From Amoeboaphelidium protococcarum X5 (Eukaryota; Fungi; Aphelidiomycota): a stretch of 64,000 bases of DNA. The position numbers and the translations under genes were made by a program. This document shows positions 1,632-43,319 of the stretch, in pieces. The notes below the pieces were generated by a model that searched no databases, had not been told where the DNA came from, and worked only from the letters and a program-made list of their open reading frames with translations. Each line of letters begins with the position of its first letter. Positions within the stretch are counted from its first letter, which is position 1. The stretch covers positions 418,371-482,370 of the forward strand of contig JALDTO010000235.1 of the NCBI GenBank assembly GCA_023515725.1. The letters run 5' to 3'.

Positions 1632-3509
1632 TCAATTTTTGTTAAATCGCTTCTTGGCCGCAGGTCGGATGTTGTTCTGTTCAGATGTCATCAACTTGGA
1701 CGTTCTCTGAGATGCGGGGATGGTAATACCATCTGCAGTAGAAGATTCATGATTCTAGAGATCCTGAACTGCTTCTAATTACTTTATAGTAGGGCCATTA
1801 TCGGACAATTACTCAGTGTCAGCAAACAGCTACACTAAAAGATGATCTATGGCGGTATAAATTACAGCCTTATTAAGTTACTTATGAGACGTTGCCTAAA
1901 CCAGAGTTGAGATTGCTCCATCGACAACTTCCGCGCCTAATGTATCGACCAAATGAATCTTATCCAACAGTCTCCTAAGTGCCTTCTGAGCTTAATTCAA
2001 AATCTGTGCTTTATCCTGCTCAGTTCGCGGCACCAATGGAGATCCCCATTTCTAATCTGGCCATAGCGATTATTCCAAGAGGCGAATGACGAACGAGATG
2101 CTCTTGTCACTGAGGCTTTTAGATATCCCTGAACGAATAATATTCCTAATAGCCGGACCAAACATGAACCAAACGTACGGCCTATATACAATCATAAACA
2201 GAGTCCAAGGTACTGCATAGTACGTGTCTAGTTTGAGTAAAGAAGCTATAAATTTCCAAAATTAATCATCAATCTAAGGCTGCAAGAGTGAGCGATGACT
2301 TTGTTACGTAGGAGCAGAAGTAAGGGAGGATAATGTAGACGCACCTTATCCAGAGGTGCTAGATTCTGTAGGCCTTAAAAGAAACTCTGAAAAGAGTCTT
2401 TTTATAAACTAGACTGTCCATAGTAGTACCAACATCGGCAGTGAGGTATTAGGAGGAGTTGAAGATGAAGCAACGCGATCTTGTTCAAAACTCTTATCTG
2501 GCGATATATCTGGTAATAACTACTTAGGATTGCTGACCAGCTTAGTTTCCACAGGAAGAGATTAAGTTTGAATCTGATTCCTTTAAATAACTGTAAACTT
2601 CTTGCCATTACCGTTGGAGGATAATGAGGCGTCCCCATTGCCACTGGTAGCTTAATGATTAACATCCGTCATATCCTTTGACCGCCTGACTTTAATCGCA
2701 CTTTACACACCACCATGCAAATGAGTTTTAATATCAGATACATATGTAAGCTAAACTTCACTACTAGACTTTTTATGACCAACTGTCCGCTTCTTATTGC
2801 CATTATTACCAGTATTACTGTTAACATTAAGGTTACTATTAGAGGGAATTTTATTCAATTGTGGATTTGACTGCACCCGCTATTTTAATCTAAACATCAA
2901 ATCTTAATCCTCAACCTTTACTATAAAATCGCAAATATTAAGAATCACCTCATGCAGAAATGTGGGATCTGATATCCTTTCGAAAATCTGTAGAAGAACA
3001 CTTCGCAATATCTCCAAGAGTAATTACTATGTCAAATTTGACGCTTAACCAAATACCCGAACTAGAGTAAACTAAATCAATTTAGTGATCAACAGAGACT
3101 CTTTACCTCTATCGTCAATACCCTGTATAGAGGGGTGTTATCGCACCAAGTACTATCTAACAAATACAGATTCACTCACACCATCTCGCCGTTCCAGGTC
3201 ATATAGACTTCTCTGTGCATCTCTAAAATCTTGCAAATGTTTATTCAATATTTTGAACAAATCATAGCATATAATCCTATCCCAATCAACATTCTAAGCC
3301 TTTGACTCGATGGTAGAGCAGATCTGTGCAAGAGCCTTCATGAGATCTTGACTAAACTCATACTCTGCCGGACACAGCCATAAATACCAAGTTTCAATGA
3401 AATCCCTCTTAAATAACGAAAGAATGGACCTCAAAGCCGCATCTGTCAATGGATGCCCAGGTGTAAATTAATACAAATTCAATTATTACTATTATTAAGA
3501 GGAGGACAT
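1632..3509 (-). CDS. PXA + Nexin_C (PXC) domain protein, Mdm1/Nvj3/SNX-RGS-related, no PX/RGS recognised (625 aa)
   Basis: Start and TGA in frame under table 6. N-terminal FIETWY..HP..LLEIL..ISDP (PXA-like). C-terminal LWP..PRT..LNKAVIYTAIDHLLVQLF (Nexin_C-like). Confidence 0.75.
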
Positions 3510-3590
3510 TGTATAAGATAAACCCCGCCTTTTGCACTGGAATTAGAGATATTAATTAACGAGGAATGAAAGGGCGAAAGATATCTCAAT

Positions 3591-3612
3591 GAACGAACGA
3601 ACGGAACGACGA
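3591..3612. repeat. (GAAC)n simple repeat upstream of the PXA gene
   Basis: gaacgaacgaacggaacgacga, about 80 bp 5' of the ATG. Confidence 0.75.
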
Positions 3613-3743
3613 AAAGAGAAAAATACGGCGATGAAACGCACCTCATGATCGATCTGCTCTTTTAATCTGCATTCAGTAATTAAGGTACACGGTATAGCCG
3701 CAATATTGTACTCATATTTTATTATTAGTATTCTTATTAAATC

Positions 3744-5723
3744 TCAATTACCAACCATCTCATTGTTTTCAAGTTCAATCGCAATCTTTTAAGCCTTCTG
3801 TTTTCTAAAGTGCCTCGTCATCTCTGGATCAAATCCCTTGGCCTGATTTCCATAGACAGCCCAGTTTGGAGTTGGTGCCACGTAGTCCAGAGAGTCAAAT
3901 GGGACGCCAGATTAGATCAAGTCATGGAATCTATCATAATCGATCCACGTATGCCATTTATCGTCAATATAAAACTTCTTATGCGCCACAAGAACTGAGC
4001 ATGAGTGTTCATGTTCACACGCAATCTCGTACTCAATAACAGATCCCAATTCGGCAATCAGCTTCTTCACAAAATCAACCACTTCATGCTGATACGGAAC
4101 ATTTGACATTCTGATGGGGGACGAGGCACTGAATCCACAGAAAGTCACACCTTTAACCTCAATGAAATCCGGCTATCCTCTTCTGATCAGATCGCAATAA
4201 TGAGACAAGTCCTCCGTATTGTAATCCTTAACCAAAGTCAGACGGTATACGGTTCTCTGTCCTTTATCCCTAATGGCATCCAGCGACCCGACAAATCTCT
4301 CCCAGAAGTCTTCAAACAGTGGACGGTCAATCTTCTTCAGGGACTCTTTAGTGGCAGCATCGACACTGACATACAGCTGAGTAACGGGGGACAAGTTGGT
4401 AATCATTTCAGGAAATTGGGCATTGGTCACTAGGAAACTGGATATGCGTCGAGCATGTAACATCTCAACAAACTCATTGATGTGCGGATACATGATGGGT
4501 TCACCGACGAGGGATAGTGCACAATGCCTGATATCGAAAGCTTCCTTCATGCGATCCTCTTGTACACCGGGAACTCCCTTCAATTGTTTAATCATTGAAT
4601 AGTGACCATCAATGGCACCATCAAGAACACTTTTAGGATCATCAATCTTCCATCGCCACGTCGTACCCACAGGATTAGTATGATGTCTCCAGCAGAAGAC
4701 GCACTTGTTAGCGCAAGCAAGAGACGGTGTAGTCTCCATACACTGGTGAGATGCGATTCCGTAAAATGTATGCTTATAACAACCACCTCTACCTCTCAAC
4801 ATACTCTTGGTCCATCTGCAAATCTTTACACCTGAATGAGATCCAACTATTTTATATCCCTACTTGGTCAACGACTTGTGCAGCATTGGATTGACCATTT
4901 CACGAGGAGTATTACCAGCAGCTTGATTCCTGGACTCTCCATAGTTGCCAACATCTTCTAGATCCATTACATCGCCTGCACCATCACCCTCTTCTTACTC
5001 TTCATCTTCATCAGATACAACAGCTTGCTCCTCATTCTACTGCTAGCCATCGGGCACAACACTACCACTCAAAGCCAATACCAATCCTTCAGACCAAACA
5101 TCAAAATCTTAAGCAATATTATACGCAAAATCACCTAGACCAGTAATTGCAATTTTCTGTGCTCCAAGACTTGCCAAATTAAAATCGACGCGTTTCGCCA
5201 CAGCATTAAAGTTCTACTTATAATCAGAGTGACCAAGACCGAATACGGCATACTCCAATCCCTTCAGTTCATCTCTGCTCACCCTAAAATCATTTTTGAA
5301 TTCATCTAACCACTAGCAGAATAGAGATGCATTATCAGGAGGAGTTCCATTCTCGTATGTGGGAATAATGATGATCAGCTTCATGGCAAGTCTGCTACTT
5401 TGACGCGTCAGAACGTCATCATCAAACTTGGATAGGTTCATAACATTGATGTCAATATCAGGCAGCACCTTTTCAATCTTATGCTTCAATGCCAGTGAAA
5501 ACTCTTTAGCAGCAAAAGTCTGCGTACCATACCATATTTAGATTGATTTCTTAGTGGCAGTCTCAGGTTCATCTCGAACATCCAGATCTTCCATCGCTAC
5601 ATCTCCTACATCTGACGAGTTCTTAATTTCTCTGCCAGAGGACGCGTCTTTCACGCTCTAGAAATAGAACTGAACGGCCAATAATAGTATGGTCAATACT
5701 ATTACCACAAATTCTACAACCAT
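3744..5723 (-). CDS. TYW1: tRNA wybutosine-synthesizing protein 1 (flavodoxin + radical SAM), 659 aa
   Basis: N-terminal TM segment, flavodoxin YGTQT, CYKHTFYGIASHQCME, CANKCVFCWRH radical-SAM motif. Ends TGA. Confidence 0.96.
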
Positions 5724-37989: not shown

Positions 37990-40962
37990 ATGGAAAAATT
38001 AGACCAGGAATGGATTGAGAAAGAGCTTGATAATGTGCAGGGGAAATTTAATAAAATATCGAGTCGAGTAAAGTCAATGCATAGGACATTCTATATTCGG
38101 TCCACCTCGAGCTCGTTTGCTGTGATTACGACCCGTATTGGAGGACCCGATGATTCGCTATACGCAAAGAGTAGATAGCTCTGGGAGTTATTACCGCGTG
38201 GATGTTCTCAAATTTTCGATACTTTAACTGGGCGGTAAGTTGGTACTGTGCAAGGTTTGCGCAAGTTTGGCTATTATAATGATCGCGACTCCGCTCCTTA
38301 TGGAGATTATCGAGCGGCTGATTCCATATGTGCCATGATAAAAGAGAATGGAGAAAATGCTCAGGTATCTGCTTTCGAACATGATGGTATATTGTATTGG
38401 GTGGCCGGATCTAAGAATGTGCATATTATATTCAGAACCGCCGATGATCTCTCCCATGAACAGTATCACGATTAGAGATATGCATTCGCGTTGCCGATAG
38501 CTCGTTGGGTATGTGTTAATGCACCTACCAACTTTTAGCGATGGTTGGCTGATAATAAGTACACTGCTTGCGGGGAAGCTCTGTTTAAAGACTCGCGCCA
38601 CCTGGTGGATTATGGAAAAGTTGAGGACCATATTCGATTCTTTGCCGTGACTTAAAGTGTATCCGTGGATTTGAATAAATTTGGTCTTACTGCTCTCAGT
38701 CCGCAATAATTTAGTAAAATATTTAGCGAGAAATTTGGATTGAAAATTGCACAGTCTTATCGCGTTATATCATGCAACGATCCTGATCTAGTCAAGTAGC
38801 TCATGATTGATATCGCCTCATTACAGAACTGTGAGGGATGCGTCCTGTATTGGACCAGACACACAGGTGCGTTGTTGAATAGCTCCAATTAGGAGTACGA
38901 GGAATAAGTTGTGTATATGTGCAAAGTTAAGAGTGTCAGTTATGCTCTTGAGAGATGTATACGGCAGGCGACTTTTAGGTAGTTGGATGAAGCTAAAGTT
39001 CGTCAATCTGTTCTATCAACTGCTGCCAAGTTGGAACCGGAGTGTGGATAGGAGGCTATTGATCTTTGGATGAATTAGCGATTAGAATTAATGATAAAGT
39101 TTAGTTAGTGGTTGATATAGAGCAAGTAAATTGATGAACATAACCGTGATGTTATACAGCCTAAATGGCTTGAGCTATAGAACACGTTTATGGAATTAGA
39201 CCTGAAAGCGGGATAATAATATGTTACGTAGACTGAAAAACTTCTTAATGAGCGATAGCAAGGTAGTGATCATAATAAGCCGGTGGTTAGTGCGCTTAGA
39301 GGATTGCCTTTGAGTGGTAAATCTACGGTGGCCAGAGCTTTATTCGTCATTCTAAAAAGACTTGGTAACAGTGTTGTTTGGATTAATTAAGACGAATTGG
39401 GTAATAAGAAAAGATATATAAATGCTGTAAAGCATGCATATTTACAGTCTTCCGTCAAGTATGTCATATTGGATAAAACTAATAGAGCTGCCGAACATCT
39501 TTTGGATATTGTTGACATTTGTGGTCGCATTGATTACTTATTCACCTTTGTTCACCCTCAAGATCAGCCCGATGAGGATGGCGCTGGATAGAATGCAATT
39601 AAGCTGTGCTAAAGTAGATTTTCTCACAGACAAGATGGTCACAGATCTATAAGTAGAGATGACGATATCGATAAGATTCTGAATATAATGGCCAGAATGA
39701 GTATAAGTTTGTAGAAGTTATTACGATTCGCTGTTATATTAAAAGATGTTGATATGACTCTGAGCACTGGTGATATTGCAGCTTAGATTCTTAAAGATAT
39801 CTTCATATCCTCCTCCAATACTAAGCTGATTTAGCAATCTATTGAAGTGTCTCACTAGTACGAAAAATGCTTGTCTTAACTAGGTGGCTAGCGGTATATT
39901 TTCTTTGGTATATTCTTTGAACATGACATCAATGATCTGCTCAGTGAGAGTGGTTAGCACATTAATTTGTTTTGTGGTCATTGGCTTGAAGGTAAAACCA
40001 AACTTTAATCTCATCATGTTACTGTTGCATACTTTGGTGATTAGATTGATCCTGATTTGTATTGCCAACTATTTAGAATGGTACATGAGGACAACATTGG
40101 CCTGGTTAAAGTTAAAATCGTGTCTCTGCATGCGGATGATAAAGCTATGGCGGCATCTGTAGTGATTTTGGACGATAGACTGTCAAAACTCTGCACCTAA
40201 GCTCACGCTCATATTACTCTGGCACTCGCTCCTAAAGTTAAGCCTTTTTATTCTAATGAATTATTGACGGATAGCAGTGCTAAAGTTCATATGATCAAAG
40301 ACGAAGTTATCATCGTTGGTGGTAGGTTGCGAGGTGAAGGTGTTTCTCAATCTAAGTCTAAAAATTTGAATGTAGTTAAAGGAAGCAGCTGGAGTGATTC
40401 TTTGCCTTAATTACGCTTCTTATAGCAAAATGCCCAATAATCATAATTGAAAGAAGTAGTCCTAGCCAGTGATATCGGTGGTGTTATTGTGGAGAGTAAT
40501 CGGCGGACGTAAACAAGTGATCACGATATTAGTCGCGAGACTTCGTTAGTCAAGAATTCTGTTGAGGCATTGACCGCTATGGCTGAAGCTGGGTATAAGT
40601 TGTATCTGCTCTCTTACTGCGGTGAAGCAACTGAGAGAAAGACTAGAGATTTTCTGTTGAACAACAAAGTGGATTAAGTTGTCCCACAGGAGCGATGGTT
40701 ATTCTGTAGATCAAGGTCAGATAAAGTGCAACTGATGCAGTAACACGGCATATAATTGTTGATTGATGACACCGCGTCAATCATAGGGCAAGTTCGTGAT
40801 GCTGGACTGGAAGGCCTTCATTTTGGTCAGGAAGATACTGGTAATTGGAGTAAGGTTTTATAAAAACTCAATCGACTGTTCTCACCTAAGCAGTAGAGCT
40901 CGACTTTGTCAGAGTCATTAGCCAAACTATCACTTCAAAGTATTGATAGCTAAACAGAATGA
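37990..40962 (+). CDS. Trl1-like multifunctional RNA ligase: Rnl-type adenylyltransferase + P-loop polynucleotide kinase + 2H phosphoesterase + C-terminal HAD-like domain (990 aa)
   Basis: PRG..GLRKFG..KENGE (motif I, 38341), GSKNVH, CGEA, FFAVT, EGCVLY, CKVKS. GLPLSGKST (39301), NQDE, ILDKTN. HVT (40015) and HIT (40210). DIGGVI (40471), LLSYC, K, IDD (40762). Confidence 0.85.
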
Positions 40963-42056: not shown

Positions 42057-43319
42057 TCACATGTTAATTCTTATGTCAGCTACATAGTGATGAACACGGG
42101 GACTATAACTCTTGACGCGCTCAAGGTGAAACAGTTCCACGTTAAGATGCGTATCGTCAATTGTTTCAGACTGGAGGCGCTCAGTCAGCAATTAACGAAT
42201 TCTAGACACCACGTATACCTTCCACTAATCAATCTCCGTATCAGATACATTTTCATGTATATGTAGCCATTTGATGTAGGGACGGTCTGTGTCCACTGCA
42301 GCAGTATCTCCCAGTTTAAGAGCCTCTATTGCCAATGGCCAGCCAGTTTCTGATGACGGAAGAAGTCCAAGATTGACACGATCGACTTTATTGCGATAGA
42401 CATGCAAATATTCGCGATTGTTGCCATAAAGTACCTGAATTCGTGAATCTATATTCTCATCACTATCATTGTTGTCAGACGGATTCCAGTTACTAAAGGG
42501 AATCTTGTGGTGGATTAAACTCTTCTACAATCCTAGGATACTGTACTAGTTCATTTCACACGCGTATACAAACCTGGCTTTCCGATGCACCAGATATGGC
42601 AATGTGAAATATCCAATTCCAGCGTATAGATCCAAGATAACATCACCATCACCGCGGTCATTGACGGGCGTAAACACGCTATCCATCTAAGCAATGCGCA
42701 ACTTTTCAGTGATATTACCACGGCAGAACATTGTTCGCTGCGGATTCCAGTTGTATTAAATTCCATTCTGAGTGACGCTTGTCCAAAAGTCCTCAAAATC
42801 GCGTGTACTGCAATTAAAGTTTTATTTAAGCACACCATCTCTCATGAGCCATTACAGTCTTGGACTCCGAATATCATCTGTATCTATTTCACCTTTAATA
42901 GCTAAATTACTCACTTTAAAACTTTACAATAAATGCCGTTATATTTGATCAGGCTCATCCGCGAACATAGTTGAAAATGTTTACTTGCCCGGCCAATTTT
43001 GTGGAAATACTACCAGATTGTCAAAGATTTCATACCTCTTTGGTAATAATTGGTTTAAATAAGTATCGCTAGACTATTATACGACAGTCTATTCAGTCTG
43101 TTCAATATTATAATTGAAATCCCATTATTGTTAGGCGCGTTACTTTAGTTTTGACAATCCAATGGCATCCACATTCAGCGTAACTTAATGCATATCACGG
43201 CCATCAGTATCATCAACAGTGTTATCATATCGAGGTCTCGAATACTTAATATTTAGACTCTACAACTATGTAAAGACCATAAAAGTAAACTATTTATCAA
43301 ATACGAGACTGTACAACAT
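42057..43319 (-). CDS. TYW2: tRNA wybutosine-synthesizing protein 2 (Trm12), 420 aa
   Basis: LPKRYE, MFCRGNITEK, DLYAGIGYFT, VDRVNLGLLPSSE, WLHIHENV, VKSYSPRVHHYV. Confidence 0.92.

What the first reader, a model, noticed from the sequence alone, without database searches (positions are those of the whole stretch)
37990..40962. Four-module RNA repair enzyme: ligase + kinase + 2H phosphoesterase + extra HAD-like domain
Seen: one 990-codon frame (table 6) carries RNA-ligase motifs (KENG, GEA, FFAV, EGCVL, KVK), a P-loop kinase (GLPLSGKST), two HxT motifs, and then a further ~150-aa module with HAD-type motifs (DIGGVI, S, K, IDD). Known: fungal Trl1 is ligase-kinase-CPD, leaves a 2'-phosphate at the junction and needs Tpt1. 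T4 Pnkp and baculovirus PNK/PNL use kinase + HAD phosphatase without a 2H CPD. Inference: having both end-healing chemistries in one chain suggests a self-sufficient, possibly Tpt1-independent pathway (CPD opens the 2',3'-cyclic phosphate, HAD removes the residual phosphate, then ligation). The ligase has a PDD..PRG..GSKNVH signature that looks unlike canonical fungal Trl1, so it may be a separate RNA-repair or anti-ribotoxin system. Caveat: HAD motif I is DxG rather than DxD. The protein is invisible in standard-code annotation.
Basis: partly seen in the sequence, partly recalled or inferred. Interest (0 to 1): 0.8.

Follow-up and report, generated by a model that had tools for sequence, protein, structure and literature searches.

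The report
tRNA ligase with extra phosphatase domain
A gene from an alga-parasitising relative of fungi encodes a yeast-type RNA-joining protein with an extra phosphatase-shaped domain that likely removes the leftover phosphate after the join rather than before it, which would be a new way to finish tRNA splicing.

Summary
The four modules are real: one 990-codon frame (code 6) in ordinary aphelid nuclear DNA; an Amoeboaphelidium protococcarum protein is 89% identical. The ligase is not alien to Trl1: it folds like fungal Trl1 (Z 23.3) and keeps the His-Arg-Arg triad that makes fungal ligases prefer a 2'-phosphate end (H204, R322, R325; invariant in 30 of 30 relatives). The C-terminal module is a capless HAD (Z 15.9) of an unnamed family (510 clusters) in which DxG is the norm, with the other catalytic residues intact and under purifying selection. 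The fusion is confined to one small clade; three-domain relatives occur in protists and giant viruses, where 2 of 21 loci carry Tpt1 beside the ligase and 1 carries this HAD beside it. Best guess: the HAD strips the junction 2'-phosphate after sealing, in place of Tpt1 (about 0.3). Against: the HAD also occurs without any ligase, and Tpt1, RtcB and a second Trl1 could not be checked in this genome. New variant of Trl1; interest 0.5.

The parts
37990..40962 (+). Whole gene, 990 aa under table 6: ligase - kinase - 2H phosphodiesterase - HAD
37990..38937 (+). Ligase adenylyltransferase domain (aa 1-316; Pfam DUF7920): K118, S141-K142, E196, E282-G283, K312/K314; triad His H204 at 38599-38601
38938..39204 (+). 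Helical ligase C-domain (aa 317-405) with triad Arg R322 (38953-38955) and R325 (38962-38964)
39280..39819 (+). Trl1-type P-loop 5'-OH RNA kinase (aa 431-610): GLPLSGKST, NQDE, DKTN, RFSHRQDGH
39907..40344 (+). 2H cyclic phosphodiesterase (aa 640-785): HVTV 676, HITL 741
40345..40449 (+). Variable linker (aa 786-820)
40450..40875 (+). Capless HAD domain of an unnamed DxGGV family (aa 821-962): D828 (40471-40473), S875, K912, D926-D927; acidic-His loop near D844-H845

Best explanation
This is a divergent Trl1-type heal-and-seal protein with a fused HAD-fold domain; its ligase likely seals ends that still carry a 2'-phosphate, and the HAD likely hydrolyses that phosphate from the sealed junction afterwards, doing the job of Tpt1 without NAD. 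[quoted passage not shown] (2) Ligase joins 3'-OH,2'-PO4 to 5'-PO4 (fold and triad shown; preference inferred, about 0.85). (3) HAD is an active Mg-dependent phosphatase (fold, residues and selection shown; activity inferred, about 0.8). (4) Its substrate is the junction 2'-phosphate (inferred from logic and thin gene-context evidence, about 0.3 overall). The likely targets are intron-containing tRNAs and other broken RNAs (untested).
For: Ligase model (pLDDT 91.5) best matches fungal Trl1 ligases: 6n0t Z 23.3, rmsd 4.9, 327 aligned, residues 13-406, above T4 Rnl1 Z 19.4; Foldseek E 1e-13. The family profile aligns His and two Arg with the His/Arg/Arg of chain 9r3w at the 107 and 3 residue spacing of His227/Arg334/Arg337 (counted by hand), the 2'-phosphate enforcers (PMC11404444; PMC12440814). 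H204, R322, R325 are invariant in 30 of 30 aligned relatives and in 3 of 3 added viral ones. Two giant-virus relatives have Tpt1 one or two genes upstream (L104, L105), so the family does appear to need a junction-phosphate remover; a third (L003) has this same HAD family head-to-head with the ligase, E 6e-43, on a branch apart from the aphelid HADs. HAD model pLDDT 93.4, capless, similar to the T4 Pnkp phosphatase (E 4e-5). D828 122/125, S875 121/125, K912 125/125, D926 125/125, D927 122/125. HAD differences to a related strain: 16 synonymous, 6 not; linker 1 and 7. HAD identity across the deep split is 42-44%, at or above that of kinase and CPD. Other family members are fused to RNase Z, CCCH fingers or ASCH.
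Against: No activity was tested. I know of no HAD shown to remove an internal RNA 2'-phosphate (recalled; one search listed only Tpt1 papers). The HAD family lives mostly without the ligase: 0 of 84 HAD loci hold a ligase, and two giant-virus bins rated 100% complete have the HAD but no ligase and no Tpt1. 18 of 21 ligase loci show neither Tpt1 nor HAD (8 of 21 are under 7 kb), so the context rests on 2 plus 1 loci. The top structural match is a small-molecule deoxyribonucleotidase-like protein (3bwv). The second Asp (general acid) of motif I is missing; the loop acid that might replace it is present in only 82 of 136 hits. [quoted passage not shown] Whether this genome has Tpt1 is unknown.
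Confidence: 0.32

Rival explanations
1. The HAD cleans RNA ends that are not going to be ligated: with the CPD it converts cyclic, 2'- or 3'-phosphate ends to 2'-OH,3'-OH (tRNA 3' ends before CCA re-addition, excised introns, decay fragments), and may tune ligation. Tpt1 still finishes splicing.
For: Fold similarity to the T4 Pnkp 3'-phosphatase and weak PHROG polynucleotide kinase hit (E 0.002); fusion of a close family member to RNase Z in a six-member cluster; such end cleaning by ELAC1 and ANGEL2 is known (PMC10275265 passages).
Against: A tethered terminal 2'-phosphatase would compete with its own ligase; no direct evidence of the substrate.
Confidence: 0.27
2. The HAD is a small-molecule nucleotidase (free nucleotides, or ADP-ribose-1''-phosphate left by Tpt1 plus a CPD) that became tethered once in this lineage.
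For: Best structural match is NT5C-like 3bwv (Z 15.9); 5 of 125 members hit NT5C weakly; Atlas look-alike of a relative is named nucleotidase family; stand-alone in bacteria and giant viruses with no conserved RNA-repair neighbour; one bacterial locus has Tpt1 convergent to it and one viral locus an ADP-ribosylglycohydrolase nearby.
Against: No cap domain to enclose a small substrate; recurring links to RNA proteins (ligase fusion, ligase neighbour, RNase Z, CCCH, ASCH).
Confidence: 0.23
3. One reading: the HAD removes the 2'-phosphate before sealing and the ligase joins 2'-OH,3'-OH ends, like T4 Pnkp plus Rnl1, so Tpt1 is bypassed.
For: All needed chemistries are in one chain; T4 Rnl1 plus Pnkp bypasses Tpt1 in yeast; fungal preference is not absolute.
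Against: The 2'-phosphate triad is kept in all 4 HAD-fused ligases exactly as in the 26 unfused ones; yeast and Mucor ligases are dead in vivo with T4 Pnkp.
Confidence: 0.1
4. The HAD domain is catalytically dead and serves as a phosphate- or RNA-binding module.
For: Motif I lacks the second Asp; no member was shown to be active; no curated family claims it.
Against: Nucleophile, Ser, Lys and both metal Asp are near-invariant across 125 diverse members.
Confidence: 0.08

Closest known systems
Fungal tRNA ligase Trl1 (Rnl6 ligase - kinase - CPD; PDB 6n0t, 9r3w, 6u00) with Tpt1
   Same: Domain order, ligase fold with helical C-domain, His-Arg-Arg triad, kinase and 2H motifs.
   Different: About 16% identity to fungal ligases; below the Pfam cut-offs of PF09511 and PF08303 and instead in DUF7920; extra C-terminal HAD.
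T4 Pnkp + Rnl1
   Same: P-loop kinase plus capless HAD phosphatase used with an ATP-dependent RNA ligase.
   Different: T4 HAD has DxD (recalled) and acts before a ligase that takes 2'-OH ends; here DxG, a 2H domain and a 2'-phosphate-type ligase.
Three-domain DUF7920 ligases of giant viruses and protists
   Same: Same ligase subfamily, 22-35% identity, triad intact.
   Different: No fused HAD; some have Tpt1 or this HAD as a neighbour gene; the sampled giant-virus group is a separate clade.
'Swiss Army Knife' RNA repair proteins (Pfam HAD_SAK_2 PF18143 and kin; Burroughs and Aravind 2016, recalled, not held)
   Same: Idea of HAD, 2H, kinase and ligase modules combined in large eukaryotic or viral proteins; earlier scan notes report giant-virus ligase-HAD-kinase-2H chains.
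   Different: This HAD does not match those Pfam models; domain order differs.
NT5C-like 5'(3')-deoxyribonucleotidases
   Same: Closest solved HAD fold (3bwv, Z 15.9, rmsd 2.4, 130 aligned).
   Different: 17% identity, no Pfam match for this domain, no cap, DxG motif.

Membership tests
Trl1-type (Rnl6) heal-and-seal ligase | Ligase-kinase-CPD in one chain, in that order | tested here: met
Trl1-type (Rnl6) heal-and-seal ligase | Adenylyltransferase motifs I, Ia, III, IIIa, IV, V | tested here: met
   K118, S141-K142, E196, E282-G283, K312/K314 invariant in 30 of 30; motif Ia has Asn for His in 22 of 30
Trl1-type (Rnl6) heal-and-seal ligase | Rnl6 fold with helical C-domain | tested here: met
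   6n0t Z 23.3, rmsd 4.9, 327 aligned, model 13-406
Trl1-type (Rnl6) heal-and-seal ligase | His-Arg-Arg 2'-phosphate triad | tested here: met
   H204, R322, R325; mapping from a profile alignment, not from superposed coordinates
Trl1-type (Rnl6) heal-and-seal ligase | Biochemical need for a 2'-PO4 end; tRNA splicing in vivo | not testable with these tools
   needs assay or yeast complementation
Canonical fungal Trl1 orthologue (Pfam PF09511 + PF08303 + PF08302) | Scores above curated cut-offs | tested here: not met
   PF09511 21.5 versus 28.3; PF08303 19.8 versus 22.7; only PF08302 passes, 35.5 versus 23. Filed as Trl1-type, not as a canonical orthologue
Canonical fungal Trl1 orthologue (Pfam PF09511 + PF08303 + PF08302) | Is the genome's only Trl1; groups with fungal Trl1 in a tree | not testable with these tools
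   no genome held; no fungal Trl1 sequence was available for the tree
DUF7920 (PF25536) | Score above cut-off over the whole model | tested here: met
   109.9 versus 27, model 26-313 of 315
HAD superfamily | Rossmannoid HAD fold | tested here: met
HAD superfamily | Motif I Asp, motif II Ser/Thr, motif III Lys, motif IV acids | tested here: met
   D828, S875, K912, D926-D927
T4 Pnkp-type DxD HAD phosphatase | Second Asp of motif I (general acid; recalled) | tested here: not met
   G830; Gly in 117 of 125
HAD superfamily | Mg-dependent phosphatase activity | not testable with these tools
   needs assay
Swiss Army Knife HAD domains (PF18143, PF10307) | Pfam match | tested here: not met
   no hit in the protein; 1 of 125 relatives hits PF18143 at E 0.0035, below cut-off
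NT5C (PF06941) | Pfam match | tested here: not met
   no hit in this domain; 5 of 125 relatives at E 0.01 or better

The most novel reading that the evidence does not exclude
Probability: 0.27. Interest if true: 0.8.

Novelty: new variant of a known kind. Interest (0 to 1): 0.5.

Why it matters
Tpt1 is the only remover of the splice-junction 2'-phosphate named in the papers read here and is essential in yeast. A fused hydrolytic alternative would be new enzymology, a tool for removing internal 2'-phosphates from RNA, and would show that the sister group of fungi finishes tRNA splicing differently. Even if that fails, the work gives DUF7920 a function (Trl1-type ligase with an intact 2'-phosphate pocket, in aphelids, protists and giant viruses) and defines an unnamed, widespread DxG HAD family with a cheap yeast test.

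Tried and rejected
Own-genome check for Tpt1, RtcB and a second Trl1: no genome is held; earlier scan notes have nothing on this genome. The last protein search covered only lengths 2885-5000 and found nothing: uninformative. Viral insertion: rejected, neighbours are housekeeping genes and GC is 0.40 as in the window. Direct origin from the sampled giant-virus clade: the tree holding both together is rejected, p-AU 7e-5 (one row, P0009, was added to the group after seeing the tree; long branches present; no root). Conserved bacterial neighbour of the HAD: none among 109 neighbours scanned from 34 picked loci of 83 or by all-against-all search of 22 picked genes; Tpt1 beside it in 1 of 84 loci and in 1 of 5 genomes, taken as weak or chance. 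Single-transcript test: the one RNA run has four short pieces, none in the HAD; the other four runs have no library on record, so their gap-free tiling of CPD-linker-HAD shows no transcript. No match in annotated phages or in viral contigs for the HAD subgroup closest to this one. Atlas could not read this sequence; a relative was used. Two YihX papers did not address motif I. Paper searches listed no paper on this protein or architecture; Burroughs and Aravind 2016 and Englert 2010 are not held. No supplements were opened. No complex prediction was run.

Full report
Observation. The frame 37990-40962 (+) reads 990 codons under table 6, with 44 TAA/TAG codons as Gln and 29 CAA/CAG. Table 6 fits the window: other long frames give housekeeping families. 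The gene lies between a nucleotide-sugar transferase and a methyltransferase, with the window's GC content. A protein named from Amoeboaphelidium protococcarum is 89% identical and one from A. occidentale about 39%, so the window is most likely aphelid nuclear DNA; aphelids are parasites of algae related to fungi (search listing).

The first three domains. Pfam gives DUF7920 (aa 32-323, E 1.6e-31), the Trl1 CPD above cut-off, and Trl1 kinase and ligase models below cut-off. A profile of 30 relatives finds tRNA ligase structures first (E 9e-25 for KIN-CPD, 1.5e-19 for LIG-KIN). The ligase model (pLDDT 91.5) matches fungal Trl1 ligases best, over residues 13-406 including the helical C-domain (Z 23.3, 22.8, 21.6; T4 Rnl1 19.4; Foldseek agrees). 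GSKNVH falls at motif Ia: trypanosome Trl1 has TKH there (PMC4931112, first of six parts read) and 7 of 30 relatives have His in place of the Asn. So the ligase is a divergent Trl1-type enzyme, not a separate kind.

The decisive detail. Fungal ligases use His227, Arg334 and Arg337 (Chaetomium numbering) to grip the 2'-phosphate; single mutants slow RNA adenylation 60- to 420-fold (PMC11404444, first of five parts), a major preference rather than a strict requirement according to PMC12440814 (passages). In the profile alignment to chain 9r3w the family's invariant His and two Arg pair with residues spaced 107 and 3 apart, the triad's spacing (counted by hand). They are H204, R322 and R325 here, invariant in 30 of 30 rows and kept in 3 of 3 further viral ligases. 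Yeast and Mucor ligases cannot support growth when T4 Pnkp strips the end first (PMC10946426, section 7 and passages). This makes phosphatase-before-ligation unlikely and implies a product with a junction 2'-phosphate that something must remove.

The fourth domain. A four-sequence profile finds 510 clusters at E 0.001 or better; the best 150 were listed, mostly stand-alone proteins of about 150 aa. In 125 aligned members motif I is DxG (Asp 122, Gly 117), with Ser 121, Lys 125 and Asp-Asp 125 and 122. The model (pLDDT 93.4) is a capless HAD: 3bwv Z 15.9, rmsd 2.4, 130 aligned, HisB-N and T4 Pnkp phosphatase by Foldseek, viral nucleotidases and polynucleotide kinases in BFVD. No Pfam, NCBIfam or PHROG model claims the family beyond weak hits. 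An acidic loop (D-T or D-H in 82 of 136 hits) could supply the missing general acid; that is a guess. The domain is under selection: of 39 coding differences used (40 shown, one outside the frame; 28 more not shown), the HAD has 16 synonymous and 6 changing, the linker 1 and 7, and HAD identity to the two distant four-domain proteins (42%, 44%) is at or above that of kinase and CPD.

Distribution. Of 45 stored ligase-family proteins 8 carry the HAD, from four clusters; two more fragments look related (P0046, P0065). The four-domain ligases form one clade (99/97), apart from the six giant-virus-context ligases (100/99), and forcing them together is rejected. The fused HADs also group (SH-aLRT 92): one fusion event is the simplest reading. 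Three-domain relatives lie on contigs with giant-virus genes (D5-type primase, Erv1, RNase III, ERCC4) and in protists. Among 21 ligase loci, 2 have Tpt1 within two genes upstream and 1 has this HAD head-to-head; 18 have neither, 8 being under 7 kb and several being close kin. Among 84 HAD loci none has a ligase and 1 has Tpt1. Two complete giant-virus bins have the HAD without ligase or Tpt1; one 94% bin has ligase and Tpt1 without the HAD. Family members are fused to RNase Z (six-member cluster), CCCH fingers (two) and ASCH (one). The HAD therefore leans towards RNA but has a life apart from ligation.

Mechanism. Shown: frame, four folds or profiles, catalytic residues, triad, selection, limited spread. 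Inferred: Trl1 chemistry for the first three domains; an active HAD. The least certain step is the HAD's substrate. Whether the genome has Tpt1 could not be checked and would move these odds most. One transcript across the linker is not shown, but the single frame and the same fusion in proteins 36-39% identical argue for one polypeptide.

Comparison with what is known. It works like Trl1 and meets the structural tests of the Rnl6 clade, but misses two Pfam cut-offs of canonical fungal Trl1, so I file it as a Trl1-type DUF7920 protein. It is not a T4 Pnkp-type HAD (no DxD). Surveys of fungal Trl1 seen here do not mention aphelids (PMC10946435 passages). A stand-alone 2'-phosphate-dependent ligase is known from the lancelet (passages of PMC10946426 and PMC3400036); whether it belongs to DUF7920 was not tested. 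Ten paper searches listed nothing on this architecture, but Burroughs and Aravind 2016, which I recall as cataloguing multi-domain RNA repair proteins with HAD and 2H domains, is not held, and unchecked scan notes report giant-virus chains with the same four kinds of module in another order. Four modules in one chain is thus probably not new in itself; this order, this HAD family and its pairing with a 2'-phosphate-type ligase appear to be. PMC10275265, PMC11090510, PMC5512222, PMC4251788, PMC8938923 and 10.64898/2026.05.26.727988 were seen as passages only.

Verdict. Real feature, new variant of a known kind, interest 0.5; 0.8 if the HAD proves to replace Tpt1 (probability about 0.27).

Noticed in passing
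L104:6550-10367 and L105:7087-9638: Giant-virus Tpt1 gene one or two genes upstream of a divergent Trl1-type ligase-kinase(-2H) gene that no Pfam model recognises; looks like a viral heal-seal-clean RNA repair set.
   Followed up: partly
L003:3260-6126: Giant-virus-like contig with a stand-alone DxG HAD gene head-to-head with a three-domain DUF7920 ligase.
   Followed up: partly
P0053 cluster: The DxG HAD fused N-terminally to an RNase Z-like metallo-beta-lactamase in six sequences.
   Followed up: no
   Followed up: partly
L001:7899-9086: Giant-virus ligase-only gene (395 aa) of this family with the triad intact and no kinase or CPD fused.
   Followed up: no
P0065: Apparently chimeric gene model joining a hydantoinase start to the C-terminal half of an aphelid-like HAD; may mark another species or a second copy.
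   Followed up: no
P0043, P0044, P0040, L018:1-2760: DUF7920-type ligases with the triad in a stand-alone form, in Chromera, in Aduncisulcus and on a compost contig: the subfamily is broad among eukaryotes and may include the lancelet ligase.
   Followed up: no
window 3744-5723 (-) and 42057-43319 (-): tRNA wybutosine-pathway genes (TYW1; TRM5/TYW2-type methyltransferase) lie in the same window; probably chance in a gene-dense genome.
   Followed up: no
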